A stretch of DNA of 64,000 bases from Ignavibacteria bacterium (GCA_025612245.1 JAAXKQ010000015.1:69362-133361); one strand, 5' to 3'. Shown: positions 27,837 to 64,000, numbered from the stretch's first letter. The notes: generated by a model from the sequence alone, not told the origin. Numbers and translations are program-made.

Positions 27837-28586
27837 ATGAAGGTAAAACCAATATCCATTTTAAAGTCTATTTGGTTTTTTGTGATTAGTTCGGCAATTA
27901 TCTATTCGGGTCTTTATTATGGAATACCGTTTTTACAATCAAATGGAATTCCTGTCTTTTTCGCTTATTTGATTGTGTTTCATATCCCCCTGTTTTTGCT
28001 AATAATTACTGCCCTCATCTTCTACCGGATTGAAGGCCATCCGATGAATTTGCAGGCATTCAAAGAACGGATCTGGCTGAGTAAAATGGATAAAAAGGAC
28101 TGGCTCTGGACTGCGGGGTTATTTACGCTCGGAATTTCGGCCTATCTGCTTTTAGCCCCCGCCGGAAAGTCATTGGCGCAAATTGGCTTTCTTGCTCCGC
28201 CCGATTTCTTCCCGGCTGAAATTAATCCGACTAAAATTCCCCGCGATGGATATATCATGGATTATAAACTATCTGGACAGTATTGGATCGCAATTATTTA
28301 TTTTATTGCAGTTGTTACAAATGTACTGGGAGAGGAGTTTTTATTCAGGGGCATGATTCTCAGGAGGCAAATTGTAAAATATGGCAACCGTGCATGGCTG
28401 TACCATGGTGTAATTTGGACCTTATGGCATTTTTTCTGGAAATGGAATTTAATCTCCATTCTGCCCTTCGGGTTAGCTCTTTCATACACAGTATACAAAA
28501 AACAAAATGTTCTAACCGGCATCATTGTCCATGGCTTGATGAACATGCTGCCGTTGGTTTTAATTATTATTGAAATTTTGAAATAA
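27837..28586 (+). CDS. CPBP family intramembrane glutamic endopeptidase (CAAX protease-like)
   Basis: EEFLFRG motif 1, later conserved His motifs (TLWHFFW, HGLMN), multi-TM. Confidence 0.8.
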   Translation: MKVKPISILKSIWFFVISSAIIYSGLYYGIPFLQSNGIPVFFAYLIVFHIPLFLLIITALIFYRIEGHPMNLQAFKERIWLSKMDKKDWLWTAGLFTLGISAYLLLAPAGKSLAQIGFLAPPDFFPAEINPTKIPRDGYIMDYKLSGQYWIAIIYFIAVVTNVLGEEFLFRGMILRRQIVKYGNRAWLYHGVIWTLWHFFWKWNLISILPFGLALSYTVYKKQNVLTGIIVHGLMNMLPLVLIIIEILK

Positions 28587-28726
28587 TTTTCCGGGAAATT
28601 CCAAGCAGCCGCAAAAAGGAATCTGGGGCTAAATCCCCAAAGAAAGGAGAGAAATCCCTGTGCCCCGGCCTAAAAGGCCGGGTACCCGGAAGCTCACTCA
28701 TCTAGACAATAATTCAGCCAGTAAAT

Positions 28727-28972
28727 CAAAAAACGTAAAAATCAGAACAACTTATATAATGCAATTACCAAGCCCCTTTTAGGGGGCTCCATGTCTTTAG
28801 CCCCAGGGAACGGATCCCCCACATTCCCCAGGCCCAATAAAATATCTGACCATCTGTAATCACGCACTAACACTAAGCCCGCTGTAGCGGGCGAGATGTC
28901 TATAGCCCGGGGTAACCAAATCACGAAAGGGATGCGGGACCCCCCGGGGACCTATAAGCGGTAGAAATTATC
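28727..28972. repeat. copy A of dispersed mosaic hairpin-module intergenic repeat (REP/BIME-like)
   Basis: About 85% identical by eye to 63594-63840. Modules of the form ...ccaag-[GC hairpin]-cg...tgtctttagccc, e.g. ccccttttaggggg and cccgctgtagcggg. Confidence 0.7.
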
Positions 28973-29245
28973 TGCACTTGCCTAAAAGTACGGATATTTC
29001 TATCCCCTGTTAGCATTCAGCATTAAACATTTTCCCCGCTAAAGGCTTAAAATTTCTCGTCCGCCCCCGTCTTTTTTGCATTTTTTTCCTCTTCACCCCT
29101 AAATCTTAAAAAAAAATGCAATTTTTTTAAAAAGTGTACGAATAATTCCATTAAATTGTTGTAGGAAATAATAAATTTTATTATGATATTTGTAGGTCCG
29201 GAAAATAGTCCGGGGTATTATATGTTTTATTTTTAAGGTTCTATA

Positions 29246-29497
29246 GTGAGTACTAAATTATTTGTAGGTTCATTACCATGGTCGGTTAACGATCAGCAAT
29301 TAGAAGAAACATTTCAGGGTTACGGAAAAGTTCTTTCTGCTAAAGTTATAATGGACCGTGCTACCGGGAGATCGAGAGGATTCGGTTTCGTTGAAATGGA
29401 AGATTCTTCTGAAGCTACCAATGCTATCAATGCTCTGAACAATTCGGAGCTCAAGGGAAGAACTATCGTAGTTAACGAAGCAAAGCCCCGCAGCTAA
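29246..29497 (+). CDS. RRM-domain RNA-binding protein
   Basis: RNP2 KLFVGSL and RNP1 RGFGFVEM. 83 aa. Confidence 0.85.
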   Translation: MSTKLFVGSLPWSVNDQQLEETFQGYGKVLSAKVIMDRATGRSRGFGFVEMEDSSEATNAINALNNSELKGRTIVVNEAKPRS

Positions 29498-33089: not shown

Positions 33090-35108
33090 TTAATGCTGCT
33101 CCGGGTACAGGGTAATGAAATTAACATCCGGATATTCTTTTACAAATCGCCTTGGGAACCTGTCGAGACTCCTGTCCCAGGAAATGCTTTTTCGCCGGGC
33201 GCTCACCAGTACAAAAAGGTCATCCTTCGAAAGCCCGTCTTTATCCAGGTTAAGAGCCACAAGTTTTTTGACCGTGTTATATTCAGCCTGCACTGCCGGC
33301 TTGCCTTCTTCAAGCTCCTTGCGCACCACACTTAAGCCGTGATAATTCCCGAAAAAGGAAATAACTGCTCCCGTTTGCTTTGCAAGCATGCGCATCTTAA
33401 GAAGCCACTTTTGGAACCCTTTTTCATATTCTGCCCTCTCAGGCATTAATACCGTAATCTTGTTGATTGTATTTACCGGATGTACCATCCGGCAGAAATA
33501 AAACACCGTTCCGGAATCTGTAATAAGCTGGTCCAGTATGTTACCGAATATCCTGTTGCGCGAACGGAACTCCCCTCTCCAGTCCAGTACCACGTCTGTA
33601 ATGAGCAGCTCCCTTACCGCCCTTATTATGCCGTTGGCAATGCTGGAATCGATTCTTGAAATAACTCTGAGCGGCTTCTCCGTAGCCGAAGCATGCAGAA
33701 TTGCGCGGTCGAGCACTTTCCTGTTTTTCATAATTTCATCCGGCGCCTCACGCGTATTGTCTACAACTTTCAAGGCCGTCAAAGGCTCGTCCGAAACCGG
33801 GTCCTGTATCATTGCCGCAAAATCCACCAGCGGCTCTATCGATTCATCCCTTGCAACCGGGATCAGGATTTTTTCCGTAATTGCCCCCGCTTCGCCAAGC
33901 CCTTTTTCCTGCTGCAGCGCCAGCTTACGCCCCGCTTTATCCACTATAAAGGAACTCGTAAGACTCGTTACAAGAATCATGAATATTGTGCCGTTGAGTA
34001 TGTCGTTACTGAACATTCCCGCCCTGAGCGCAATAAGAACGATTGCAAGAGTTGCCGCTGCCTGTGCGCTGCTGAGCCCGAACATAACATTCCTTTCAAG
34101 AGATGTATACTTATAAATATTCTGGACGAAAAATGCGGCAATGAACTTTGATGAAAGCGAAATAACAGTCATTAGAATTGCAACTATCCATGTTTCCGTA
34201 CTGCTGTAAAGGCTTCGTACGTCAACGAGCATTCCTACTGAAATTAGAAAGAAAGGGATAAAGATCGTGTTTCCTACAAAAAGTATTCTGTTCATTAGCG
34301 GTGAGGTTGAAGGTATATAACTGTTAATTGCAAGCCCCGCAAAAAATGCACCTATAATTGGCTCCAGCCCCGCTGCCTGTGCCAGTGAGGCCGAAAGAAA
34401 AAGAGCGGCAAGAACATAAATAAACTGCTGTTCGCCGTCAGTCTCAAGCCCCCTGAAAAACCATGCCGTAAGACGCGGAAGGACAAAGAAAACAAGAAGC
34501 ACTAAAACGGCAAAGCCCGCAATTATCCTTATCCAGAATGAACCGGTCATCTCCCCCTGCCTGATCCCTATGATAACGGCAAGCGTCAAAAGTGCAAGTA
34601 TGTCAGTAATAATTGTGCTCCCCACCGTTACAATAACGGACCTCGACTGTGAAAGCCCGAGCTTGCTGGCGGCAGGATATGTCAGCAGCGTGTGCGAAGC
34701 AAACATTGCGGACAGCAGTATGGACGACAACAGATCCAGCCTGAGCAGATAAAAAGCTGCAGTATAGCCCAGCGATATTGGAATAACAAAGGCTGTAATG
34801 CCGTAAATAATGCTCCTGTTTCGGCTCTTGCGGAACTCCTCCATGTCTATTTCAAGTCCCGCAATAAACATAATATAAAGCAGTCCCACGGTGCTGAAAA
34901 GTTCAATGCTGGCATCGCGCCCAAGAAGGTTTATGCCCTTGGGACCGAATATAACACCGGAAATTATCATGCCCACAATCCCCGGGATGCCAATGCGTTT
35001 TGAAACGAGAGGAATAAGAAGTATGGTCAATAATATTATGACAAAAATTATAACCGGATTTTTTACAGGCAGTTCTATTAAAACAATTGGATGCATTAAA
35101 CCCCGCAC
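33090..35108 (-). CDS. cation:proton antiporter (CPA family) with C-terminal cytoplasmic USP-like domains
   Basis: About 11 N-terminal TM helices typical of Na+/H+ exchangers, plus a roughly 270-aa soluble tail. Confidence 0.8.
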   Translation of the reverse strand: MRGLMHPIVLIELPVKNPVIIFVIILLTILLIPLVSKRIGIPGIVGMIISGVIFGPKGINLLGRDASIELFSTVGLLYIMFIAGLEIDMEEFRKSRNRSIIYGITAFVIPISLGYTAAFYLLRLDLLSSILLSAMFASHTLLTYPAASKLGLSQSRSVIVTVGSTIITDILALLTLAVIIGIRQGEMTGSFWIRIIAGFAVLVLLVFFVLPRLTAWFFRGLETDGEQQFIYVLAALFLSASLAQAAGLEPIIGAFFAGLAINSYIPSTSPLMNRILFVGNTIFIPFFLISVGMLVDVRSLYSSTETWIVAILMTVISLSSKFIAAFFVQNIYKYTSLERNVMFGLSSAQAAATLAIVLIALRAGMFSNDILNGTIFMILVTSLTSSFIVDKAGRKLALQQEKGLGEAGAITEKILIPVARDESIEPLVDFAAMIQDPVSDEPLTALKVVDNTREAPDEIMKNRKVLDRAILHASATEKPLRVISRIDSSIANGIIRAVRELLITDVVLDWRGEFRSRNRIFGNILDQLITDSGTVFYFCRMVHPVNTINKITVLMPERAEYEKGFQKWLLKMRMLAKQTGAVISFFGNYHGLSVVRKELEEGKPAVQAEYNTVKKLVALNLDKDGLSKDDLFVLVSARRKSISWDRSLDRFPRRFVKEYPDVNFITLYPEQH

Positions 35109-35267
35109 GATTGTTTCTAACTACTGACCCCTTATAAATAGATATCAATTTCCGGCGTGGAATTCAGTGCAGAATTTATAGACGGCCTGTGTGAGAACAA
35201 CTCTTAAAAATCTCCAGTCCATGAAACCTGAGCCTGCAGAAAACGCATTTTCCAATGAAGGGTGTTC

Positions 35268-35815
35268 TGTCTTTAGCCCCCGGGAACCATGAATTCCCCT
35301 CATCCATAAAATCTAAACCAACAGAACAATGCATCACCCAAGCTCCGGAAGGAGCGCTTTGTCTGTAGAAAACACCGGTATCCCCCTAAATTCCAGAGCT
35401 CCGAATGGAGCGACTTTTATCTTACTTACTATTGGATAAATATATCATTGAACCATGACCCCACACACATAAAAACCATCCCGTCAAAACAACCGAGAAT
35501 TATCTTAAATATCCATTACACAAAACGCACAATCAGGGAAATGAAAAAGAACATGCAACCGCTATGGGCGGTAGGGAAAACTTCTTTTGTAACCATTTCT
35601 ACAAACATGCTACCGCTAAAGCGGTAGAAATCCCAACACATTTACACCCGACCACATTGCTTCCATTCATAATTCCTCTGTGCCGCTCCTGACCGGAGCT
35701 TTGTGTATTGTTGGTGGAATCCTTTTTCCCCGGGGTTCAGTCGCCCCCATCCGGGGGCTTCCTCACCCCGGGCTACTGATGTTACGCCCGCGCTGCGGGC
35801 TTAGTCATTCCATAA
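35268..35815. repeat. copy B of mosaic hairpin-module repeat, modules in both orientations
   Basis: 35268-35425 matches copy C forward (…aaatctaaaccaacagaacaa…caagctccggaaggagcgctttgtctgtagaaaa). 35765-35805 is the reverse complement of C 63705-63745 (ctaagcccgcagcgcgggcg…cagtagcc). Confidence 0.7.
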
Positions 35816-36100
35816 TTCCAAACTCCCAGCCTTCATGGTTGTTTCCTTCCCCCTCCACCTTTGCCTTTTCCTAAACCTAGAACCTTGAACTTTGAACCCT
35901 TTTCACACTTAAAACTCAAAACTTAAAATTATTCCCCCCACTTAAAAGAAAAGCCCATACATACGCATGGGCTTAAACGGAGAAAGTATTACTTCAAATA
36001 ATCTACTCACGAAACTATTTTACTAATTTCTTCTACTTTTACTTTTTCTACTCTTTCCTCTTTTAGTACTTCAAAAAGAAAAAAGTTCCAGCTTTTTTTT

Positions 36101-38761
36101 TTACATGTTAAACCAGTATGTAAACTTCATCATAAATATATTGTCGGCTCTGGTGTTAACCAGACGGTTTAACGACCTCCCGAATTTAAACTGCCCGTCA
36201 GTATCGGATTCATCCCTGTTCTGTGTCCAGACAAGATATAGTATTGAACCCGGCATGTACTCCCATCTTAAAACTGCATTGCCCCTCAGTGACTTATAAT
36301 TGAAACTCGGGTTGTCAAAAGTATATGCTTCTGCAGGATTTGCTGCTCCGTCGGCATCAACCGTATATTCATCGCCATCCTTAACTATTGTGGAATTCCC
36401 CTTTCCGTAATTATCATAGTCCATCGAGCCCGGACGCGAGAGCATCTTAAAATCCGTATAATCGCCCGAAGAAATCAACGGCTGCATATAAAGCTGCAGA
36501 CTCAGCTGCGGGGTGAATATCCAGTTAACCCTTATTCCGGCTGCCGCGGTTAACTGCTCCATCTTCGCAAATATGTACCTTGTTCCATACGTTGCCCTTG
36601 CAGCCGCATCTTCGTAGGAATCGACCCACTGCGTATTTTCAACCAGCCCGGAGAATTCAGGAGTGATGCTGATGCTGAAGTTTGCCCCCGGCCGCCACTG
36701 TATTTCCCAGTATGTATCCCACTGGTTAGAACCATCCCTGCTCCCATAATAATCGTAGCCGTTTCCTATTACAAGACCTTTCCTGTCATCGGAATGCCAG
36801 TAGAAATTAACCTGGGAACCCGATTCATTTAGCGTAAGCGGACCTCCGCGGGTTCTCCTGTTGCTGATTGTTCGCGGATTGTAAGCCAGGTTCCAGTTGG
36901 CATAATAATAATTTGAAAACGTAATGGACCCGAAATGAAAAAGCCCTTCCCAAATGATGTTTTTGTCAAAATCGTAGCTCCTGAAAAAAGCTCCGCCCAG
37001 CTCAAGATAACGGAAGGTTTTATTCGGCTCTGTCCACTTGTAGCCCGCTCCGGCATGCATGTTTATGACGTCACCCCTCGACATATATCCCGCATCATTG
37101 ACGTCAAACCTGGGATCAATAAAGCCCAATGCCGTATTGACGAAAAAGTTACCCTTCTGCTTAACGACATAGAACCTTCCGGCATAACCCGATAGCGAAG
37201 TAGCCGAACTGTCCACGTGAATATACTTCCTGTCCGGACGCTGCAGGTAGTGCTGCGAATTCATCTGCAGATCGGTAATTCTTTCTTTTGTACCTGTAAC
37301 ACGGGTTCCTTCCATGTACCCGCTTATTACCCATTCCTTATCGGAGTCAAGAAATGTCCAGCCGTCCAGCCCCAGGGCCAATGCGCTGGAATTTATATCG
37401 CTTCTTAACCAGTCCTCCTTAAAAAACCGGCTGCTTTGCGTTGCAAGAAATCCGAGCCCCTGCCTCCCGTCGTTAAAATCTTTCTGCGCACGGTATACCC
37501 CGTAATAGGTTAGGGGTTCAACCTCAAGCGTCGATTTCTTTCCTTCATACTGCATCTCTGCGCTTTCCCGCATTGTAAGTGCACTGATTGCACCAATGTT
37601 CCAGTTATTGCTCATCTTGCCCGTAAGCTTTGCGGCACCCAGTATGTGCGCACCCGAAGGCACGTCCGAGTAATCATTGTCGGGCAGACTTCCCTGCGGC
37701 GCACGGCCAATACGGCGACTGTAAAACAGGTTGGGCTCTGGCCAGTTAAAACCCCAGTAATTAACCGCACCCCCGCGTCCGAAATTGAATATGCTGGAGC
37801 CTTCAATAAAGAACGGCCTTTTCTCCTGGTAAAATGTTTCAACGTCGCTTAAGTTTACAACAGCCGGGTCAACTTCCACCTGGCCGAAGTCGGGGTTAAC
37901 CGTTGCATTAAGCGTAAGATTGCTCCCGAGCCCCATCTTGAAGTCAAGCCCGAGCCCCGGAGTATACCTGGAATTTTTTATGAAGGGATCCTCGGCATCG
38001 TGCCTCAGGTATTCGGCCTTCCCAATTATATAAGGCAGAAGTTCCACCCTTCCCGGAGGCGTTATATGTTCAATACCCTGTATTTCTGGAAACCTGGATA
38101 CAAAGCCGCTGCCGTCTTTTGGAGTAAATGTTATGTAGTCGTCCTCGTTTTTCCTCTGTATCATCCTTTCCACATTTATTGCCCACACATAACTGTCCGC
38201 CTTATGAAACCTCAGCTGCGAATAAGGGATTCTCATTTCCGCAACCCAGCCCAGCGAGTCTATGCTGGACTTGGCTTCCCAGACACCATCCCATGAGTTA
38301 TCCGACCAGTCGTCGTTATAAAGTGTGCCGTCGAAAAGCGTTCCTGCCGCGTTTACCCCAAAGTAGTTTCCCGTGCGGTGGTCAAGGTATGGATCTATGT
38401 AAAAATAAATGATATCGGAACTGGAAGAATTATCGCGGCGACTCAAGCGGGCTACTATGGAATCGGGATGCGAATCGTACATCCTTGCTCCCACGTAGAG
38501 CGCTTCGTCATCATATGCTATGCGGACTTCCGTCCTTTCTGTCGGCTGGGCACCTTCTACTGGATCTCTCTGTAGAAAGTTGGAAAAGCAGTTATCCATC
38601 CGCTGCCAGACAGTTTCCGAGAGCCTGCCGTCTATTACAATTGTCTCTGTTGATCTTAAAGCTTTTGCACCGAGCCGTTTTGAAGTATTGGAATCCCGTC
38701 CTTCGCCAAAAACAATGCCCGCTAAAATAAGCAATACAATGATCAGCACTTTGAGTTTCAT
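36101..38761 (-). CDS. large secreted beta-rich protein, DUF5916 / CBM9-like family
   Basis: Signal peptide. N-terminal carbohydrate-binding-like domain and a long C-terminal beta-barrel-like region ending in an aromatic residue. Family assignment from memory of DUF5916 proteins. Confidence 0.6.
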   Translation of the reverse strand: MKLKVLIIVLLILAGIVFGEGRDSNTSKRLGAKALRSTETIVIDGRLSETVWQRMDNCFSNFLQRDPVEGAQPTERTEVRIAYDDEALYVGARMYDSHPDSIVARLSRRDNSSSSDIIYFYIDPYLDHRTGNYFGVNAAGTLFDGTLYNDDWSDNSWDGVWEAKSSIDSLGWVAEMRIPYSQLRFHKADSYVWAINVERMIQRKNEDDYITFTPKDGSGFVSRFPEIQGIEHITPPGRVELLPYIIGKAEYLRHDAEDPFIKNSRYTPGLGLDFKMGLGSNLTLNATVNPDFGQVEVDPAVVNLSDVETFYQEKRPFFIEGSSIFNFGRGGAVNYWGFNWPEPNLFYSRRIGRAPQGSLPDNDYSDVPSGAHILGAAKLTGKMSNNWNIGAISALTMRESAEMQYEGKKSTLEVEPLTYYGVYRAQKDFNDGRQGLGFLATQSSRFFKEDWLRSDINSSALALGLDGWTFLDSDKEWVISGYMEGTRVTGTKERITDLQMNSQHYLQRPDRKYIHVDSSATSLSGYAGRFYVVKQKGNFFVNTALGFIDPRFDVNDAGYMSRGDVINMHAGAGYKWTEPNKTFRYLELGGAFFRSYDFDKNIIWEGLFHFGSITFSNYYYANWNLAYNPRTISNRRTRGGPLTLNESGSQVNFYWHSDDRKGLVIGNGYDYYGSRDGSNQWDTYWEIQWRPGANFSISITPEFSGLVENTQWVDSYEDAAARATYGTRYIFAKMEQLTAAAGIRVNWIFTPQLSLQLYMQPLISSGDYTDFKMLSRPGSMDYDNYGKGNSTIVKDGDEYTVDADGAANPAEAYTFDNPSFNYKSLRGNAVLRWEYMPGSILYLVWTQNRDESDTDGQFKFGRSLNRLVNTRADNIFMMKFTYWFNM

Positions 38762-43026: not shown

Positions 43027-43128
43027 TAAATTAAAAATAGGAAGATGGGAAATTAAAAAGGAAAAATTAAAAAGGGAAGATTGGGAATTAAAAAGGAAAA
43101 ATTAAAAAGGGAAGATTAGAGAGGGAGG
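43027..43128. repeat. 35-bp A-tract-rich tandem repeat (about 2.5 units) in a divergent promoter region
   Basis: gaagatgggaaattaaaaaggaaaaattaaaaagg at 43041-75 and gaagattgggaattaaaaaggaaaaattaaaaagg at 43076-110, with partial units either side. Confidence 0.7.
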
Positions 43129-48501: not shown

Positions 48502-48556
48502 ACACTAAAGTAGAACTAAAAATCAAAAAGTGGAAGGATTTAGCAGCGAAAATATT

Positions 48557-48660
48557 AAGTTTTAAGTTTTAAGTTTTAGGTTATAATTTTTAATTTCCAA
48601 TTTCCAATTTCCAATTTTTAATTTTTAATTTTTAATTTTTAATTTTTAATTTTCCCCCCT
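48557..48660. repeat. cluster of AT-rich simple-sequence repeats upstream of the SBP gene
   Basis: (aagtttt)x3, (ttccaatt)x3, (tttttaat)x5, then C6. Confidence 0.8.
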
Positions 48661-49938: not shown

Positions 49939-50011
49939 GCACCCTTAGCTCAGCTGGTAGAGCATCTGACTCTTAATCAGCAGGTCGCCGGTTCGAATCC
50001 GGCAGGGTGCA
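49939..50011 (+). tRNA. tRNA-Lys (anticodon CTT)
   Basis: Manual cloverleaf. Acceptor gcaccct/agggtgc, D-stem gctc/gagc, anticodon loop cuCUUaa, T-arm gccgg-ttcgaat-ccggc. CCA is not encoded. Confidence 0.9.
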
Positions 50012-50015
50012 CTGC

Positions 50016-50050
50016 TAAAAGCTTCAGTTTCGCAAGAAACTCGAAGCTTT
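50016..50050 (+). terminator. terminator after tRNA-Lys
   Basis: aagcttcagtttcgcaagaaactcgaagcttttttt. Confidence 0.6.
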
Positions 50051-50173
50051 TTTTATTTTAAACCTGACTTTATTCATACTAACCCGGATCGTCTCCGTCA
50101 GCATAAATAAGCCTCCTCTCAATCCCATAAATACTAAGGCCCGCCATAAAGACAGGCCCTAATGAACCTTTTT

Positions 50174-52072
50174 TTAATTTAAGCTTACCTGCGTACCCGC
50201 CTCTTCGGCAGGAGCTTCACCGCTTGGTCCGGCTTCAGCTCCTTTCGGCAGCTTATCCTTTATAATCATCGCAAGAAGAGTATTCACAAGCGAGTTTCCA
50301 TCTGCTCCGCTTCCGCTGCCTCCGGCTACAATGTCCGGAACAAGCTTAAATCCGCTCGTGGCTAGCGCCTTTGCTACTTCTATTGCCGCATAGTTGCCCG
50401 ATTCCATCGACTTTATCTTCATCGTTATAACGTCAGCTTCAGCCGTACCAACAGCCTTGATCTTATCTCCCTCGGCAGCACCTACGGTCTTTAATACCAT
50501 TGCATCTGCTTCGGCATTGATCTTCTTCGATTCTGCCGTACCGCCTGCACTCTTTACAGCCGCCTGCGCTTCAAATTCGCTGATCTGCACTTTACGTTCC
50601 GCATCAACTACCCTCGCCTGCGTATCGGCAAGTGCCCTTGCCTGCTGAAGCTCCTTGCGCGTATCTTCCGCAAGCCGCTGTGTATCGTAAGTAACTTTCT
50701 CCTGCTCCGCTATCTTGCGGTCCGTTAGCGTCTTCATGAGCTCTTCCGGCGGCACTATGTCGCCTATTAAAGTATCAACTGCGCCAACGTTATAATCCTG
50801 CAGCGCTCTTGATATGCTCTGCCTTGCGTCATCCTGACGCTCCTTACGGCCTTTGAGGAATTCAATTACATCAGACCCCTGTGCCGTATTGCGGAAGTAA
50901 TTGCCAATTGTGGGCTCAAGCACCTGCGTAACCAGATTCGCCACGCTTCCGAAACGCGCAATTACCTTCGGGGCATCGGTGCTTGGAATGTGTATAATCT
51001 GACTTACGTCAAGACTGAATGTAAAGCCGTCGGAGGAGCGGACTTTAATTGTTGAGAGCTTTTCATCAAGCTTGTGCGATTCGGTTTTGCCGGTAGCCCA
51101 GTTGAGTACTACGTTCGCTGTAGGCACAATCTCTACTTTATGAGTATATGGATTAATAGGATACTTTCCCGGATCAAGCGGCTTAACCCAAACACCCTTC
51201 TGTCCCCTGCTTACAAGATTTCCATGCTTGAATGTTTCACCCGTAACGTCCACTCCCATATCGCCCACATAGGCAATTACAACGCCCACGTTTGCAATAG
51301 GTACGGTAGTCATTTCTTTGATTTCTACTGTTGCAAATCTTGGATTGATGTAATAACGCCCGGCCAGAATCACCTGCTCCTGAAGTCCCTTGTAGCCGCC
51401 GTTATCGAGGAATATCTGCCCGTCCTGGAAGCTGTTATGCCCGGGTATTTCACGGCCTGCAATTTCTCCGGTCTGCAGCGGCAGGCCTTCGCGTGTAGTA
51501 ACAATGCCCACCATATTGTCATCAATTTCAAGCGCCGCTTCTTCAACAACAGTGAATAGTGAAGTATTGATGCGGTAAGTACCCGGCGGAATAATGGTAA
51601 TTTGCGGACCGCGTTCGCCTCCGTTAAGAAGGAAGTCGCGTGCGCTCTGGAATGAATCGCAGTTCACCTTCTTGGCAAGCACGCGTCCGTCCTTAAGAGG
51701 ATGACCGTCCCTTGCCTCAACGATGCCGATATTGCCTTCTTTGATGTTGATGAATTTCTGTTTGGTAACTTCATACTGCCAGGGCCAGAGCCAGAAATGG
51801 AGCCCCGGCGCAAGAGTATCTGCCTGGTAGCCGGCCTCGCCATTCAGTGCTATAATAGCCCCGTCGGGGAGCATGCGGTGTTTGCCCAGAAGTACGAACT
51901 TTTTATTAACAATGCCTATTGAGTCTTCAGGAATAATAACAATTCCGAAGAATCGTAAAATCAATTTGTTGGCTACTATGAGAAGAATAATAACTATAAT
52001 CCACCAGTAGCTGCCCAGGAAATTTGCCAGTCCCACGTTGCGGCTCCTATAATTGTGATAAAAATACGACAT
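50174..52072 (-). CDS. flotillin family (SPFH/band-7) membrane protein
   Basis: N-terminal TM, SPFH domain, C-terminal Ala/Glu-rich coiled-coil flotillin repeats. 632 aa. Confidence 0.8.
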   Translation of the reverse strand: MSYFYHNYRSRNVGLANFLGSYWWIIVIILLIVANKLILRFFGIVIIPEDSIGIVNKKFVLLGKHRMLPDGAIIALNGEAGYQADTLAPGLHFWLWPWQYEVTKQKFINIKEGNIGIVEARDGHPLKDGRVLAKKVNCDSFQSARDFLLNGGERGPQITIIPPGTYRINTSLFTVVEEAALEIDDNMVGIVTTREGLPLQTGEIAGREIPGHNSFQDGQIFLDNGGYKGLQEQVILAGRYYINPRFATVEIKEMTTVPIANVGVVIAYVGDMGVDVTGETFKHGNLVSRGQKGVWVKPLDPGKYPINPYTHKVEIVPTANVVLNWATGKTESHKLDEKLSTIKVRSSDGFTFSLDVSQIIHIPSTDAPKVIARFGSVANLVTQVLEPTIGNYFRNTAQGSDVIEFLKGRKERQDDARQSISRALQDYNVGAVDTLIGDIVPPEELMKTLTDRKIAEQEKVTYDTQRLAEDTRKELQQARALADTQARVVDAERKVQISEFEAQAAVKSAGGTAESKKINAEADAMVLKTVGAAEGDKIKAVGTAEADVITMKIKSMESGNYAAIEVAKALATSGFKLVPDIVAGGSGSGADGNSLVNTLLAMIIKDKLPKGAEAGPSGEAPAEEAGTQVSLN

Positions 52073-52467
52073 AGAAACTAGATAATTCCCCGTTAATTAG
52101 CAAAGGACTAAAACTTTTCCAATTCCTTCTCTCTGGCTCTTGGTTCTGTGAAAGCTTCACATGAAGGAATTCTAATAGCCTGATATTCGTCTCCGGCATA
52201 TTTTGAGTCGAAAAGCCAGGGGAGCATTCCCGCCGGGTCGTTCAATAAGTAAGGCAATAATGCCCCCAGACTTTTCAATTGCATCAATTGCTTAATATGG
52301 GTATTTATACCCTTTCAGGTATAGTTTAGGTTAATTATCTTGTTTTATACCTTATTGGGTATAATTTTTGCAAAAACACTTGATATTATACCCGAGGTGT
52401 TCAGCCGAAACTTTCTCTTGAAATTGAAAGAGCAGGAAAGGATAGACATAATAAAAGGTTTACAATA

Positions 52468-53172
52468 GTGGGCCTTTGGGGCAATTTCATTTTAAAGCCT
52501 CCAATGGAGGAATATTTTCAGATGCCGGAAATTGAAGATCTGACAATGCATCTGTCTGAGATGTTAAAAATCAGAACAGCTGAGCATACGTTAATACGCC
52601 TTAATTCCGGTGAGCTTGCTTATTTATCAAAACGCTTCGACCGAACCGCAAAAAATAAACTTCAGCTTAAGGATATGGCACAGCTTACCGGTACTCTTAC
52701 AGAACGTAAATACAAAAGTTCCATGGGAAAAATCGGCAAAACAATACTTAAATATTCAAGCTATCCGAAATTTGACCTCCTGACATTTTTCGAACTCACG
52801 GTGTTTTCTTTTCTGACGGGAAACGCAGATATGCACCTGAAGAACTTTTCTCTTCTTACAAACAACGAAGACGAGGTAATGCTTTCTCCAGCTTATGACC
52901 TGCTTTCAACAAAGCTCCTTATTCCGGAAGATACAGAAGAAATGGCTCTTACGTTAAACGAAAAGAAAAGCAATCTTAAGAGAAGGGATTTTGACACGTT
53001 TGCTGAATCACTTCAGATAAACAGCACGTCTGTAAACAACTCATACCGGAAGTTTTTTAGCAGTGAACCTATGATACTTGAGTTTATCGATAAAAGTTTT
53101 TTACAGCCAGAACTCAAAGAGGCTTATAAAAAGCTCTATTCAGAAAAGATTGAAAAACTTAAAAATCAGTGA
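52468..53172 (+). pseudogene. 5'-truncated HipA-like Ser/Thr kinase toxin gene (C-terminal catalytic half only)
   Basis: AYLSKRFDR, DMHLKNFSLL and SPAYDLLS are collinear with E. coli HipA RFDRR / DGHAKNFS / PFYDIIS. The upstream GAQEK P-loop region is absent. Operator-like palindromes sit upstream. Confidence 0.55.
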
Positions 53173-53610
53173 TAAATTGGTAGTATCTAGAATTTAGTGT
53201 AAATGATTTATAATTCAATCCCGGAACGTAGCCCCGAGGGGCGGACAGCGGAGGGATTAAATTTACAGCGACTCTGGAAGTTAACCAGAGGAATTAATAA
53301 ATTAAATCATCTACAAGGAAGAGAGATTATCTCTCTTCTCTATACAGCTTCCCATGCAAGATTATTGAGCAGGTGGTTCATTTTGACTAGGCCCTCAAGT
53401 TCAAGGTCCTTACTCATTATAAGATTATGCATCTGGGCTATAGCATTGGAATTTGACAGCTCGTATTCAAGATTAGATTCTGAGTCATCAACTACTTTAC
53501 AGGCTTTTCTAATGTACTTCTATGCTTTTCAAAGAAAGCTTTAGCTGAAATTACTTCCTTCTTGTCATTCGGCAGTCAAACACCTCCTTAAGACCAGCAA
53601 GATAATATCC

Positions 53611-53997
53611 TCAGTAATAAATAAGATCCTCGTCTTTTTCATCGAACTTCAGGATATTGCTGAAATAGCTTGAGATGCTATTCTTCATAATAACAGGGTC
53701 CTTGGGCTTTACTAATATAAAGTAGTAGCCCGTTTTTTCTTCTTCATATTCTGACCATTTGCTTATTTCTCTAAAACCACTACAATCAATCAATTGTTAG
53801 TCACTGTTACCTATCCAATAATACCCATGACTGTCTTTTGATGCAATAACCATCCAATGTTCTTCATTCTCAACCCTTGCGATGATAGGATAGCCTGTTT
53901 CCAAAGTTTTGCCTATTGCCATCTTGACTTTGGCTTCCTCTTTAATATCACATACCACCGATTCAAGGTCGAACTTGTTTAAGACACGACGAATCAC
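53611..53997 (-). pseudogene. disrupted ORF remnant (two adjacent same-strand fragments separated by a stop)
   Basis: Track ORFs 53797-53997 and 53611-53793 share a strand and are adjacent. Motifs GYPIIARV...HWMVIASKD...NSD are faintly papain/C39_2-like. Confidence 0.25.
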
Positions 53998-54334
53998 ACC
54001 CGCAGATGTACCATATTTTTTGTGACACTTGCGGCCCTATGGCCCATTTCGGAACTTATCGGAAAGCCTAATACAAGTGCTAAGTGTAAAATGGCGTACT
54101 CCCAGCAATCGCCATAGACTTCCTGGTACTTAAACCATACTAGTTCCCTTCGCTTTTAAGTAAGCGGATTAGTTTTTTAATCATTTCATTTACTCCGATT
54201 AGTGATTATAAGGATTTGCCGGGCTTTCCTTTTACTGACATTCTACTTATCCCACTTTTATCCACAGAGAAAATGAAGTAATATACCAGTACTTTTATAA
54301 AATTTTATGGAGTGGACTTCATAATGATGTTAAT

Positions 54335-54367
54335 CTAAAAATAAAAGGGAGATATACTCCCTTTTAT
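54335..54367. terminator. hairpin terminator at the 3' end of the OLD gene
   Basis: aaaagggagatatactcccttttattta. Confidence 0.5.
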
Positions 54368-56263
54368 TTAGCTCTCAATCTCTGCCTTGACAGTATTAAT
54401 AACCATCGGACGCTGCACAAATTCATTAACTCTTCTTAATATATTACGAAGTTCATCCTGAGGATCCCTAATACTGAGAAGTTCTGGAGTCATGTGCTTA
54501 ACTGCCAAAGCATTAAGCCACTTCTTGCATGCAGATTCTTTTTTCTTTTTATTCTCATCATCTAAGCTATCCCATGAATTTGGTGAATCGCTATTTTCCA
54601 ATAGCTTTTGTGCAGCCATTATTGGAACATCATCAAAATCTCCAAACGCAATAACAACTTCTGGCCGAACCCTTTGAACGGCTGTAGGATGAAGGTAGTT
54701 TTCAATCTCTAACTTGGATAAAATATATGCTTCACAGTTGTCTCTGAGATTAGTTTCATCGGCATTTTTTTTGTATTTGGGTTCTTTAGGAGGTATAGTA
54801 TCCCTGTCATAAATATGAATTTCGGGACGATTAAAGCCTTTCAGCCTACTGGTCCAAAGAGCCAGATTAGATCCCCCAAATGGAATGAATATTACAGAAC
54901 CAGCATTTTCCAGATCTTCAAGGTTAGGTATGTCTGGTTCTGTTTGCGCAAGTACCTTAGATATCTCCTTAAAAAAGTTTATATCATTTGGCCCTTCAAC
55001 GCATAAAAACAACTTAACATCATGATCAGCTAATATCCCAAGATCTTTAATTATTCTTTTAATTGTTTCATCATCATCTTTGTGCAGTATTCGCTTCTTA
55101 TCTGCTGTTTTTTCAATATATCTTATGGAGGAAGATGGTATTAAGCGGGCTAATGTAGGCGTGTGTGTAGATATTATCACCTGGCAGTTAGAATTATGGA
55201 CCAATTCAAACAAAGATTCAAGCAACATAACTTGGTTTGTCGGATGCTGAGAGGTTTCTGGTTCTTCAATCGCATATATAATACCTGGCGAATTCCGCTC
55301 GATAGCCTGTTGTTCTGCCTTAGCCCTAAAAAAGTTAATTAAAATTAATCTTCTGACACCACTACCTCGCTTGTTGACAGGGACCTGTGTTTCATCAGTC
55401 AAACTTACCTTAAATATCTTGTCCCATGCAGAATCCAATACTTTCGGGTTTAACTCACTTGCCAGATCTGGATCCATTTCCTTTAATTTGTCAACCGTTG
55501 CCTTACTTACCTTTTCAACTTTCTCCTTAACATTTTGTATAATTTTATCAAGATCGTGCCTTTGGCTTTCCAAAGCTTCTTTGATTGCGACCTTCATAGG
55601 GTCCTGCGCTTCATTGTCCTGGTCTGTGCTTTCTCTATCAGATTTAAACAATGCAAATAAGGGCATTTCTGATTTAATTTTATCCCACATTCTTTTCTGA
55701 TCTTCATCTTTATCTTTTAATTGTATTCGTTGTTCGGCCAATTCAAGATCTGGAAATGAACTCCATATTTTTTGTCTTATCTCGGCCTTAATTGTTTCCT
55801 TAACATCATCAAGACTTACCCCAATATCCTTTGCCCTTTTTCTTAGCTGTGTAATTGTTAGTTGATATAAATCATTGGCATTATCGATGCTAGGATGCAG
55901 AGAATTGAGATAGACTTCCTTTGGCTTTGGTTTTCCACCAGTATATACTTTCACAACTACTAAATTCCCATTTGAATTTAGTAAATACTCATCCTTAAGA
56001 TCTACTACATTTGTTGCATCAATTATTAATGTTTGCGGCACTTCAGTAAATTCACAAGTGATAGTTATATCATCAGAGGCGGAACCAACGCTGATATCGC
56101 CTTGATCCAAAGAGGTATCATTAAAGAATACATTCATTGCATCTAAAATGGCCGACTTACCCGAATCATTCTTAGCAATTAAAGTCGTAAAGTCGTCAAA
56201 CTCAATTTTGAATTTTTCTTTGTAGCATCTGAAGTTTTCAATGGTTAAGGAAACCAGTTTCAT
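54368..56263 (-). CDS. OLD-family ATP-dependent endonuclease (ABC-type ATPase + C-terminal Toprim), standalone class-1-like
   Basis: N-terminal IENFRCY...KNDSGKS Walker A of AAA_15/21 OLD ATPases. IEEPETSQHP signature-like motif. C-terminal Toprim with CVEGPND and YDRD. Confidence 0.8.
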   Translation of the reverse strand: MKLVSLTIENFRCYKEKFKIEFDDFTTLIAKNDSGKSAILDAMNVFFNDTSLDQGDISVGSASDDITITCEFTEVPQTLIIDATNVVDLKDEYLLNSNGNLVVVKVYTGGKPKPKEVYLNSLHPSIDNANDLYQLTITQLRKRAKDIGVSLDDVKETIKAEIRQKIWSSFPDLELAEQRIQLKDKDEDQKRMWDKIKSEMPLFALFKSDRESTDQDNEAQDPMKVAIKEALESQRHDLDKIIQNVKEKVEKVSKATVDKLKEMDPDLASELNPKVLDSAWDKIFKVSLTDETQVPVNKRGSGVRRLILINFFRAKAEQQAIERNSPGIIYAIEEPETSQHPTNQVMLLESLFELVHNSNCQVIISTHTPTLARLIPSSSIRYIEKTADKKRILHKDDDETIKRIIKDLGILADHDVKLFLCVEGPNDINFFKEISKVLAQTEPDIPNLEDLENAGSVIFIPFGGSNLALWTSRLKGFNRPEIHIYDRDTIPPKEPKYKKNADETNLRDNCEAYILSKLEIENYLHPTAVQRVRPEVVIAFGDFDDVPIMAAQKLLENSDSPNSWDSLDDENKKKKESACKKWLNALAVKHMTPELLSIRDPQDELRNILRRVNEFVQRPMVINTVKAEIES

Positions 56264-56464
56264 ATTGACTCCCAGAATAGTATGACAAATGAGTTAATAG
56301 TGAACTATATTCGTGTTCGTTTTTAAGCCATTGTTTTAGAGAATGAATGGAATCACTAAGGAATCAGAATATATAGTAGGAAAAGACAGGCCTTGTTCAT
56401 GGTGTCAGAGTATTTTTTAGATCGGCAGTTAAATTAATATTTATTTTAATGTTAAACAAATTAA

Positions 56465-56492
56465 TCGCCGGTTCGAATCCGGCAGGGTGCAC
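56465..56492 (+). repeat. attR-like direct repeat: copy of the 3' 28 nt of tRNA-Lys
   Basis: Identical to 49985-50012 and followed by a related terminator hairpin. Confidence 0.8.
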
Positions 56493-56874
56493 CAGAAAGC
56501 TTCCGTTCCGCAAGAATTTCGAAGCTTTTTATTTTTATCCTGCGCCGTAGAATTAGATAAGCCCCTTACAACTGCCATGAAATGGCCTTTTATGGAAAAA
56601 CCAATGATGATTAACCTGGGGGCATTTTAATCCTTTCTGATACCCTTTATTGCCATGCTTTTTAAATGCCTCGTGCAATGTGGCGTTGAATCGCCCCAAT
56701 TTTTATGATTATACTTTCCTTATCTTACCTTTTGGCATTTAATTATTATTATCTAAATTTGGGAACAAAAATTCTCCATATGCGTTTTTGTTTCCTTAAA
56801 GATAAGTGACAGATCAGAACCTATTAAACTCTTGGCAACACATATAAAACGCGGCTATATAATTGAGGTTAATA

Positions 56875-63505: not shown

Positions 63506-63593
63506 ATAGGCTCGCCTTATTCTTATCCCTTCCACCGGGGAGATGCAGTTTATACACAATTTGGTACCGGTTCGGTACCCGTAGCCCGTAATT

Positions 63594-64000
63594 CAAAAAC
63601 GTAAAATGCAGAACACCATACATAACGCAATTACCAAGCCCCTTTTGAGGGGCGCCATGTCTTTAGCCCAATAAAACAAATCCCCCCACATTCCCCAGTC
63701 CCCATAAAATTTCTGACCATCTATAATCACGCAATAACTAAGCCCGCAGCGCGGGCGAAACATCAGTAGCCGGGGGTGACCAAATCCCGATAGGGATGCG
63801 GGAACCCCCGGGAACCATGAAATCCCCACGCTCATAAAATCTAAACCAACAGAACAACGCTTCCCCCAAGCTCCGGGGGCGAATAATCCCACAACCATCT
63901 CTACGATATCTGAACCAATATAATCACGCATCTTCCAAGCTCCGGAGGAGCGCTTTGTCTGTAGAAAAAAACGAATAAAAAAAAGAATCAGAGCTCCGGA
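63594..64000. repeat. copy C of mosaic hairpin-module repeat (truncated by window end)
   Basis: Collinear with copy A for about 245 bp, then extends with modules shared with copy B. Confidence 0.7.

What the first reader, a model, noticed from the sequence alone, without database searches (positions are those of the whole stretch)
28727..28972. Novel dispersed mosaic repeat made of about 50-bp GC-hairpin modules (copy A)
Three non-coding copies of a complex repeat lie in this 64 kb window: 28727-28972, 35268-35815 and 63594-64000. Each copy is a chain of modules of the form [..ACGCA..CCAAG]-[4-6 bp GC stem / 3-6 nt loop]-[CG..TGTCT.TAG.CC]. Hairpins differ between copies through compensatory changes, for example ccccttttaggggg versus ccccttttgagggg and cccgctgtagcggg versus cccgcagcgcggg. 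That pattern suggests selection on structure rather than sequence. Module orientation alternates, as in REP/BIME arrays. The six-frame ORFs across them (28742-28924, 35680-35874, 63593-63931) share peptides only because of the repeat.
Basis: seen in the sequence. Interest (0 to 1): 0.8.

Follow-up and report, generated by a model that had tools for sequence, protein, structure and literature searches.

The report
REP-like hairpin repeats in an Ignavibacteria genome
Three gene-free stretches of this uncultured Ignavibacteria genome carry one family of short DNA hairpins strung together in varying combinations, much like the "REP/BIME" repeats of E. coli: an unreported family of an ordinary, well-known kind of bacterial repeat.

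Summary
The repeat is real, non-coding and confined to three intergenic regions within about 80 kb. A (28716-28972) matches C at 83% (E 3e-64). B is a 760-bp block (35184-35943). C starts at 63583 and runs about 950 nt past the window end.

It is built from two stem-loop units:
- A core unit, RAG-[GC stem]-CG-NN-TTGTNTGTAG, about 20 copies.
- A GTAG/ATAG-tagged 7-bp stem, CCSGGGG...CCCCSGG, around an inner hairpin, 4 copies.

Stems stay paired through genuine C-G to T-A double changes.

Block B is missing from the same site in a related genome. Two other relatives carry a different REP-like family (GAATAG-CCACGRSC-N4-GSYCGTGG) at that site. There are no matches in Rfam, plasmids or phages. Pattern scans of 185,579 species genomes, JGI metagenomes and viral contigs gave only chance hits.

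Best reading: a lineage-specific REP/BIME-like family, probably mobile and non-autonomous. Genome-wide copy number and an associated RAYT transposase could not be tested. It is a new member of a known kind, of modest interest.

The parts
28716..28972 (.). Copy A: two core units plus one ATAG-tagged composite stem-loop. Homologous to the left part of C only. Its last bases (AAGCGGTAGAAAT) resemble the 3' half of the CTACCGC hairpin inside B and C.
   Evidence: blastn, 83% over 238 nt to 63583-63816, E 3e-64. Alignment. Lies between the CAAX-protease gene (stop at 28586) and the 83-aa RRM_1 gene at about 29246-29497.
28765..28806 (+). Core unit A1: AAG-CCCCTTTTAGGGGG-CTCCATGTCTTTAG.
   Evidence: CM hit of 29.1 bits (this unit is in the training set).
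28870..28911 (+). Core unit A2: AAG-CCCGCTGTAGCGGG-CGAGATGTCTATAG.
28902..28947 (+). ATAG-tagged composite stem-loop: ATAG-CCCGGGG-(28 nt with a degenerate inner hairpin)-CCCCCGG.
   Evidence: Regex scan. Also predicted in the centroid fold.
35184..35943 (.). Block B: 760 bp of family material, absent from the orthologous intergenic site of relative L020. It sits immediately after the DUF5916 terminator.
   Evidence: Window flanks 35135-35183 and 35944-35986 lie 8 nt apart in L020 (11089-11189). Gene order DUF5916 then Na/H exchanger is conserved.
35335..35374 (+). Core unit B2: AAG-CTCCGGAAGGAG-CGCTTTGTCTGTAG.
   Evidence: CM hit of 38.4 bits. Flagged terminator-like.
35391..35430 (+). Core unit B3: GAG-CTCCGAATGGAG-CGACTTTTATC.
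35442..35775 (.). 334-nt core, 99.1% identical to C at window-equivalent 64038-64370. The identity drops sharply right at the GTAG tag (35773-35776, minus strand).
   Evidence: 331 of 334 columns identical; flanks 72-87%. Alignment.
35558..35627 (-). Two hairpins inside the core, ACCGC-tatgg-GCGGT and CTACCGC-taaa-GCGGTAG. On the minus strand the second is followed by CATGTTTGTAG, a core-unit-like tail.
35666..35807 (-). Three inverted core units (35666-35706, 35724-35765, 35767-35807). Together with the GTAG unit they mirror unit C2 of copy C.
   Evidence: I1 (84% complementary to 63725-63788). DNA fold z -3.83.
35729..35776 (-). GTAG-tagged composite stem-loop: GTAG-CCCGGGG-(30 nt containing GCCCCC-ggat-GGGGGC)-CCCCGGG.
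35841..35943 (.). Tail of block B with heptamer-period repeats (GAACCTT-like). The same kind of tail follows copy C.
63583..64000 (.). Copy C, cut by the window end. In the identical JGI contig the repeats continue to about window-equivalent 64950: a full element of about 830 nt, then heptamer repeats and five more units.
63631..63672 (+). Core unit C1.
63735..63775 (+). Core unit C2.
63766..63811 (+). GTAG-tagged composite stem-loop: GTAG-CCGGGGG-(28 nt containing ATCCC-gata-GGGAT)-CCCCCGG. Relative to A, both arms changed together.
63864..63900 (+). Degenerate core unit C3 (AAG-CTCCGGGGG-CG, hairpin lost).
63932..63970 (+). Core unit C4: AAG-CTCCGGAGGAG-CGCTTTGTCTGTAG.
   Evidence: 38.2 bits.
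63986..64000 (+). Start of core unit C5, cut by the window end.

Best explanation
These are lineage-specific REP/BIME-like repeats of an uncultured Ignavibacteria bacterium. They are non-coding clusters of short GC-rich stem-loops joined by A/C-rich linkers.

There are two unit types:
- A core unit: a 5-7 bp stem (counting the closing G-C pair), then CG-NN-TTGTNTGTAG.
- A GTAG/ATAG-tagged 7-bp stem that encloses a second hairpin.

The units are shuffled, inverted, truncated and partly homogenised between loci.

Shown:
- The repeat exists.
- It is non-coding.
- Hairpin pairing is conserved.
- It occupies an intergenic position just after a terminator.
- It is present in the window but absent at the same site in one related genome.
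- Sister genomes carry a different but analogous family.

Inferred:
- The clusters arise by insertion and spread of non-autonomous DNA. The most likely agent is a single-strand-specific Y1 (RAYT / IS200-like) transposase acting in trans on the tagged hairpins, followed by recombination or gene conversion between copies.
- Once in place, the hairpins probably act as 3'-end or terminator-like RNA structures, or as neutral passengers.
For: - Significant inter-locus similarity.
- All 22 covariance-model hits with E < 1e-3 fall in the three loci, out of about 178 kb searched. These units are the model's own training set; the information is that no extra copies appeared elsewhere.
- The four outer stem pairs are 100% paired in 17 distinct units. 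Two of the pairs show C-G to T-A double changes, and 0 of 500 shuffles reach the observed values.
- The A and C composite stems changed on both arms together.
- Three of four composite units carry GTAG directly 5' of the stem; the fourth carries ATAG. This matches the defining tag of the GTAG REP superfamily (PMC3733652).
- Empty site: block B (760 bp) is replaced by 8 nt in relative L020.
- The same spot holds a truncated CCACG-type REP in L022 and a 2.7 x 219-nt array of them in L018.
- L018 has 15 CCACG-type units in 22.6 kb, arranged as inverted pairs about 110 nt apart. The window has none.
- B and C are a mosaic: 99.1% identical over 334 nt but 72-87% in the flanks, with the break at the GTAG tag. 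That points to exchange between family members.
- Short-read assemblies break inside copy C: the NCBI MAG contig ends at window-equivalent 64119 and the Logan contig at 63612.
- Both strands of the B right half fold better than shuffles, as expected of DNA palindromes.
- Terminator-like sites: 6 observed against 1.3 expected in 35000-36200.
Against: - Only three loci were seen in about 80 kb. Genome-wide copy number is unknown.
- Pseudo-ORF searches found no other copies called as proteins in public data.
- Motif scans of GTDB species genomes and JGI metagenomes found only chance hits. These scans did not recover the window's own copies either, so its genome seems absent from both collections. 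They say the family is not widespread, not how many copies this genome has.
- No Y1 transposase gene appears among the Pfam-annotated genes of the window and flanks.
- Core-unit stems (4-6 bp plus the closing G-C) are shorter than the 6-13 bp typical of REPs, and their TAG-ending motif lies 8-10 nt from the stem rather than next to it.
- No target-site duplication or defined ends were found at the B insertion.
- The independent compensatory events are few, about 3-4. The CTCC/GGAG type alone accounts for 6 of the 7 double-change cells.
Confidence: 0.65

Rival explanations
1. MITE-like non-autonomous transposon of a DDE-type insertion sequence. Copy C would be an element of about 680 nt bounded by imperfect inverted repeats of about 90 nt (63725-63814 and window-equivalent about 64310-64400). 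A and B would be truncated derivatives.
For: The inverted arms are 79-84% complementary (I1). B and C share the whole right arm and interior. B behaves as an insertion relative to L020.
Against: No target-site duplication at the B junctions. Repeat material extends outside the putative inverted repeats: C1 lies to the left, and heptamers and further units lie to the right. B lacks the left arm. The 'arms' are themselves made of the same small hairpin units found singly elsewhere. No transposase was seen, and there is no match in the plasmid or phage collections.
Confidence: 0.12
2. A family of structured non-coding RNA genes or cis-acting RNA elements. The 334-nt core, or the hairpin arrays, would be the functional product (for example a 3'-UTR stabiliser or an sRNA), kept similar by selection rather than by mobility.
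For: The core is 99.1% identical between B and C while the flanks have diverged. Folds are better than shuffles (z -3.4 and -5.0). Stems are maintained by double changes. Several units look like intrinsic terminators.
Against: Both strands fold about equally well and no G-U-only pairs mark a transcribed strand, as expected of DNA palindromes. Units occur in both orientations within one locus. Nothing matches any of 4227 Rfam families even at E <= 1. The core is absent from copy A and from the syntenic DNA of relatives. No conserved promoter was identified.
Confidence: 0.1
3. Local, non-mobile origin. Intergenic hairpins (terminator duplicates) would have been amplified by slippage and unequal recombination and copied between nearby loci by gene conversion, with no transposase involved.
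For: Tandem amplification of hairpin clusters is evident in relative L018 (219-nt unit x 2.7) and within C (units C9-C13). The identity pattern between B and C is mosaic. All three loci lie within 36 kb of each other.
Against: The loci are separated by many unrelated genes, so an initial transfer between sites is still needed. The same post-terminator spot was filled independently by different families in sister lineages. Assembly breaks suggest further near-identical copies elsewhere.
Confidence: 0.1
4. Assembly artefact or chimeric contig.
For: Contigs of two short-read assemblies end inside copy C.
Against: The same sequence is present in independent assemblies. The JGI 575-kb contig matches over 20.7 kb at 99.995% and over a further 16 kb with 0 mismatches. 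The NCBI MAG covers copy C at 100% over 547 nt. A Logan contig spans copy A at 100%.
Confidence: 0.01

Closest known systems
GTAG-tagged REP elements (repetitive extragenic palindromes) and their clusters, as catalogued by Di Nocera et al. 2013 (PMC3733652); E. coli BIMEs are the classic mosaic form
   Same: - Extragenic, GC-rich stem-loops.
- An unpaired GTAG (here GTAG or ATAG) directly at one end of a stem.
- Stems vary by complementary changes.
- Complex loops with inner self-complementary parts.
- Units sit in clusters and in opposite orientations, separated by linkers.
- Location downstream of ORFs.
- Species-specific sequence families.
   Different: - Most units here (the core units) have shorter stems, and their TAG-ending motif is 8-10 nt 3' of the hairpin rather than adjacent.
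- Clusters include long A/C-rich linkers and a 334-nt near-identical core.
- The spacer between the opposed GTAG units of C is about 500 nt, not 20-100.
- Copy number and RAYT association are unknown.
- In the searched literature, GTAG REPs were not reported for Ignavibacteria, and only CGTC-type repeats for Chlorobi and Bacteroidetes.
CCACG-type REP-like family of the sister Ignavibacteriales MAGs (GCA_036261625.1, GCA_036261335.1, GCA_050259615.1), found here
   Same: Same clade, same intergenic hot spots (after the DUF5916 terminator and upstream of the RRM gene), a TAG-ending tag next to a GC stem, and clusters and tandem arrays.
   Different: The sequence is unrelated (GAATAG-CCACGRSC-N4-GSYCGTGG). 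It is a regular 8-bp stem with a 4-nt loop, arranged as neat inverted pairs about 110 nt apart. It does not occur in the window.
Modular intergenic repeats such as pneumococcal BOX elements and MITEs (own knowledge)
   Same: Mosaic of a few module types in variable number and order. Non-coding, intergenic, forming stable secondary structures.
   Different: No sequence similarity, no fixed boxA-boxB-boxC order, and no terminal inverted repeats with target duplications demonstrated.

Membership tests
GTAG-tagged REP superfamily (PMC3733652) | Short palindromic stem-loop, stems mostly 6-13 bp | tested here: inconclusive
   Composite units have 7-bp stems. Core units have only 4-6 bp plus a closing G-C pair, at or below the lower limit.
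GTAG-tagged REP superfamily (PMC3733652) | Unpaired GTAG (allowed variants GYAG, GYRG, GTRG, GTMG) directly at one end of the stem | tested here: inconclusive
   Met by 3 of 4 composite units (GTAG). Copy A has ATAG, which is outside the listed variants. In core units the [G/T/A]TAG lies 8-10 nt 3' of the stem.
GTAG-tagged REP superfamily (PMC3733652) | Extragenic, predominantly downstream of coding regions | tested here: met
   All units lie in three intergenic regions. B starts right after the DUF5916 terminator, and A and C follow the stop codons of the CAAX-protease and TonB-receptor-like genes.
GTAG-tagged REP superfamily (PMC3733652) | High copy number across the genome (tens to hundreds) | not testable with these tools
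   Only about 80 kb of this genome was reachable: about 20 core units and 4 composite units in 3 loci. The collection scans found no other copies, and they did not recover the window's own copies either.
GTAG-tagged REP superfamily (PMC3733652) | Units organised as dimers or clusters in opposite orientation | tested here: met
   Orientation blocks: + + - - - in B, and + + (+) + + - - - + + - - - in C. The GTAG units of C face each other with the tags on the outside.
GTAG-tagged REP superfamily (PMC3733652) | Cognate RAYT (Y1 transposase) gene flanked by the repeats (REPtron) | not testable with these tools
   No Y1_Tnp among the Pfam-annotated genes of the window and its 16 kb of flanks.
MITE | Terminal inverted repeats at the element ends plus a target-site duplication | tested here: not met
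   The B junctions against the empty site in L020 show no duplication, and B lacks the left inverted arm.
Known RNA families (Rfam 15) | Covariance-model match | tested here: not met
   No hit in any of the loci at gathering score or at E <= 1.
Intrinsic terminators | GC-rich hairpin followed by a T-run | tested here: inconclusive
   One search finds 6 terminator-like sites against 1.3 expected in 35000-36200. One is the DUF5916 gene's own terminator; four are units or family hairpins with T-rich tails. Other units (for example ...CGAAACATCAGTAG) have no T-run.
Diversity-generating retroelement TR/VR pair | Differences concentrated at adenines of one copy | tested here: not met
   The substitution spectra of A versus C and B versus C are mixed. 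There is no reverse transcriptase nearby.
CRISPR array | Identical direct repeats at regular spacing with unique spacers | tested here: not met
   Units differ in sequence, orientation and spacing.

The most novel reading that the evidence does not exclude
The 334-nt block, 99% identical between B and C and ending exactly at a GTAG tag, would be the cargo of a still-active, single-strand-transposed, non-autonomous element. Alternatively it would be an RNA gene carried by such an element. This would sit in a phylum where no REP-RAYT system is known, with sister species having swapped one hairpin family for another at the same post-terminator hot spots. That would make the clade a natural system for watching REP families being born and replaced.
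Probability: 0.12. Interest if true: 0.6.

Novelty: new member of a known kind. Interest (0 to 1): 0.3.

Why it matters
REP-like elements are common, but they have been studied mainly in Proteobacteria and Cyanobacteria. A documented family in Ignavibacteria extends their range. Three features are useful here: an empty site in one relative, a different family occupying the same spots in sister genomes, and a sharp identity boundary at a GTAG tag. Together they offer a small comparative system for asking how such families arise, spread and get replaced.

There is also a practical point. These repeats break short-read MAG assemblies, and annotation pipelines call spurious ORFs across them (112-, 133- and 148-aa 'hypothetical proteins').

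Tried and rejected
1. Motif scans of genome contigs and metagenome contigs with CGCANNNNCCAAGCN{8,14}GCNNNNTGTCTNTAG. They returned 2 and 5 stretches, all without hairpins or other family features, so chance. The window's own two matches were not recovered, so its genome seems absent from both collections. These scans therefore say nothing about this genome's copy number.
2. Pseudo-ORF route to more copies. A 160-aa ORF across C found only the window's own 112-aa ORF among 5.8 billion proteins. A full HMMER scan of 1.84 billion representatives added three chance hits to FG-GAP-like repeat proteins.
3. Looking up P0001 to extend C failed. The extension was obtained through neighbouring genes instead.
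4. Viral-contig scans. One gave 0 hits. The other gave 2 hits that are a simple phage hairpin with no other family features.
5. Searches against plasmids and phages found no match.
6. DGR, CRISPR, tRNA-derived and Rfam-family readings were rejected.
7. The short motifs are not informative alone. TTGTNTGTAG with one mismatch is no commoner in the window than chance (13 against 10.8). TAGCCCSGGG is only mildly enriched (15 against 7).
8. A literature search for the assembly accessions found nothing.
9. A search for a RAYT gene in this genome could not be designed with the available tools.

Full report
**Source and context.**
- The window belongs to an uncultured Ignavibacteria bacterium, going by the NCBI name on the identical DUF5916 protein P0002.
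- It is essentially identical to JGI metagenome 3300038998 contig Ga0395530_000002 (575 kb): 99.995% over 20.7 kb and 0 mismatches over a further 16 kb.
- It also matches NCBI MAG GCA_025612415.1 and Logan contigs.
- Using neighbouring genes I obtained 9.5 kb to the left and 6.3 kb to the right of the window.
- The gene content is ordinary chromosomal housekeeping: Mfd, pyruvate dehydrogenase, citrate synthase, transporters, sensor kinases. No transposase is present.

- blastn of the three regions against the window gives these matches:

| Pair | Identity | Note |
|---|---|---|
| A 28716-28952 vs C 63583-63816 | 83% over 238 nt | E 3e-64 |
| B 35277-35348 vs C 63805-63876 | 89% | direct |
| B 35311-35372 vs C 63908-63968 | 85% | direct |
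| B 35726-35817 vs C 63725-63814 | 79% | inverted |

- All three lie between genes. A is between a CAAX-protease gene and an 83-aa RRM-protein gene. B is between the DUF5916 and Na/H-exchanger genes. C is after a TonB-receptor-like gene.
- The ORFs across them are not genes. A and C differ by indels of 1, 2 and 1 nt. The 112-aa ORF has no true relatives in 5.8 billion or 1.84 billion proteins.

**The extents need correcting.**
- C continues beyond the window. The full element is about 830 nt. It is followed by heptamer-period repeats and five more hairpin units, up to about window-equivalent 64950.
- B is a 760-bp block, 35184-35943.

**Anatomy: core units.**
- The commonest unit is RAG-[C/T-rich arm, 3-6 nt loop, G/A-rich arm]-CG-NN-TTGTNTGTAG. 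There are about 20 copies, all in the three loci.
- The G of RAG and the C of CG close the stem.
- A covariance model built from 17 distinct units found no further copies in the window, its flanks, or about 70 kb of syntenic DNA from relatives. The hits in the three loci are its own training set.

**Anatomy: tagged composite units and linkers.**
- The second unit type is a tagged composite stem-loop: [G/A]TAG-CCSGGGG-(28-30 nt with an inner hairpin)-CCCCSGG. There are four copies, one of them at the right end of B and one at the right end of C.
- Between the units lie A/C-rich linkers.
- In B and C there is also a central segment with the hairpins ACCGC-tatgg-GCGGT and CTACCGC-taaa-GCGGTAG.
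- Orientation comes in blocks: B is + + - - -, and C is + + (+) + + - - - + + - - -.

**Structure conservation.**
- On the unit alignment, the four outer stem pairs are paired in 68 of 68 cells.
- Two of the pairs show C-G to T-A changes on both sides, in 7 cells. None of 500 shuffles reaches the observed pairing or covariation score, and slid partners drop to 35-57% pairing.
- The stem types are CTCC/GGAG, TCCC/GGGA, CCCT/AGGG, CCCC/GGGG, CCCGC/GCGGG and CCCCC/GGGGG.
- Between the corresponding units of A and C, the composite stem changed on both arms: CCCGGGG/CCCCGGG against CCGGGGG/CCCCCGG.
The number of independent events is small, about 3-4.
- Whole-locus folding is unremarkable for A (z -0.27 and -1.21).
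- The right half of B folds better than shuffles on both strands (z -3.8 as DNA; -3.4 and -5.0 as RNA). That is what DNA palindromes give, and it does not single out a transcribed strand.

**Evidence of turnover at the B site.** I fetched the orthologous region from related MAGs whose DUF5916 proteins are 79%, 77%, 76%, 72% and 61% identical. What sits after the conserved DUF5916 terminator differs between genomes:

| Genome | What follows the terminator |
|---|---|
| Window | 760-bp block B of this family |
| L020 (79%) | empty: the flanks of block B lie 8 nt apart in a 141-bp spacer |
| L022 (76%) | one truncated hairpin of a different family (GAATAGCCACGAGCTTTAGCTC) |
| L018 (77%) | 2.7 tandem copies of a 219-nt cluster of that other family |

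- The other family is GAATAG-CCACGRSC-N4-GSYCGTGG. It has 15 copies in six intergenic regions of L018, typically as inverted pairs about 110 nt apart with the tags on the outside. It has one copy in L020 and none in the window, even with two mismatches allowed.
- The 61% relative (L023) has compact spacers without GC-hairpin families.
- So hairpin clusters come and go at the same intergenic hot spots, and sister lineages carry different families. This is the usual behaviour of REP families.

**Relations among the three copies.**
- B and C are 99.1% identical over 334 nt (35442-35775 against 64038-64370), but only 72-87% identical on either side.
- On the right, the identity breaks exactly at the GTAG tag.
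- A matches only the left 235 nt of C (79-82% by segment). It then continues with a fragment resembling the 3' half of the CTACCGC hairpin.
- This mosaic indicates recombination or gene conversion among family members, and deletion derivatives.
- Short-read assemblies break inside C. That suggests further near-identical copies or strain polymorphism, but I could not reach the rest of the genome.

**Comparison with what is known.**
- No Rfam family matches, even at E <= 1.
- The plasmid and phage collections hold nothing similar.
- Specific motifs are absent from 185,579 species genomes, JGI metagenome contigs and viral contigs apart from chance hits. Because the window's own matches were not recovered, its genome seems not to be in the first two collections.
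- The closest described class is the GTAG-tagged REP superfamily of Di Nocera et al. 2013 (PMC3733652). Its features are extragenic stem-loops with an unpaired GTAG at one end, stems varying by complementary changes, complex loops, dimers and clusters in opposite orientation, species-specific families, and often a RAYT gene flanked by the repeats.
- The composite units fit this description. The core units fit only loosely, having short stems and a tag 8-10 nt away.
- That paper lists GTAG repeats in Proteobacteria, Cyanobacteria and Chloroflexi among other phyla, and CGTC repeats in Chlorobi and Bacteroidetes. My literature search found no REP family described for Ignavibacteria.
- Copy number and RAYT linkage, two defining features, could not be tested.

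**Mechanism and verdict.**
- Shown: a non-coding hairpin repeat family that is structure-conserved, present in this lineage and absent at the same site in a relative, and located after terminators.
- Inferred: spread as non-autonomous DNA, most plausibly by a Y1/RAYT-type single-strand transposase recognising the tagged hairpins, followed by homogenisation between copies. Once in place, the units could act as terminator-like or 3'-end-protecting RNA hairpins. The scan of 35000-36200 finds 6 terminator-like sites against 1.3 expected.
- Rivals, none excluded: a MITE of a DDE-type IS (no target duplication, no fixed ends), an RNA gene family (no strand signal, no Rfam match), and purely local amplification.
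- Overall this is an unreported member of a known kind of element. It is interesting mainly as a comparative system, not as a new principle.

Noticed in passing
Window 43028-43117, 48555-48653, 35860-35930; L014 5313-5378 and 5732-5843; L020 485-553, 2923-2953, 3037-3067; L018 580-609, 3529-3567, 3822-3860; L023 18326-18415, 21290-21324, 21467-21510: Tandem repeats with a 7-nt period fill many intergenic regions throughout this Ignavibacteria clade. Examples are TTAATTT x14, AAATTAA-type, AAGGTTC x4-6, GTTCGAC x9 and AATTTTG/ATAACTC. They often flank a gene or gene group in inverted orientation: 43028-43117 against 48555-48653 in the window, and both sides of the PDH E1 gene in L023. They recall cyanobacterial STRR heptamers (own knowledge). 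Function unknown.
   Followed up: partly
Window 49939-56536: The 3' part of tRNA-Lys(CTT) (49939-50012) and its downstream hairpin are repeated at 56467-56536; ARAGORN calls an odd 'tRNA-???' at 56410-56494. The 6.5 kb in between has low GC (0.36-0.40) and carries Band_7, HipA_C and AAA_15/AAA_21 ATPase genes. This is probably an island integrated at the tRNA, with no integrase visible. See (D15).
   Followed up: partly
Window 29110-29250 (upstream of the RRM_1 gene at about 29246-29497): The 141 nt upstream of the 83-aa RRM-domain protein gene are 84% conserved with relative L018 (20841-20979), unlike the surrounding spacer. The stretch includes the hairpin CCGGA-aaatag-TCCGG at 29198-29213. 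It is likely a conserved promoter or 5' leader. There is no Rfam match.
   Followed up: no
L018 3604-3732, 6150-6278, 12792-13452, 18613-18743, 21053-21182; L020 13234-13253; L022 6146-6165: A distinct REP-like family in sister MAGs: GAATAG-CCACGRSC-N4-GSYCGTGG. It has an 8-bp stem and a 4-nt loop, and forms inverted pairs about 110 nt apart with a small GTGGC-taaa-GCCAC hairpin in the spacer. There are 15 copies in 22.6 kb of L018.
   Followed up: partly
Window 28618-28690: Just left of copy A lie two further hairpins, TGGGG-ctaaat-CCCCA and CCCGGCCT-aaa-AGGCCGGG. The first resembles the GGGGC-taaa-GCCCC hairpins of the L018 clusters, with short blastn hits to six L018 spacers. This may be a remnant of the other family.
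   Followed up: no
Window 63593-63931 (-); L014 5301-5702 and 6287-6733: Annotation pipelines call 'hypothetical proteins' of 112, 133 and 148 aa across the repeat cluster. These are spurious ORFs.
   Followed up: yes
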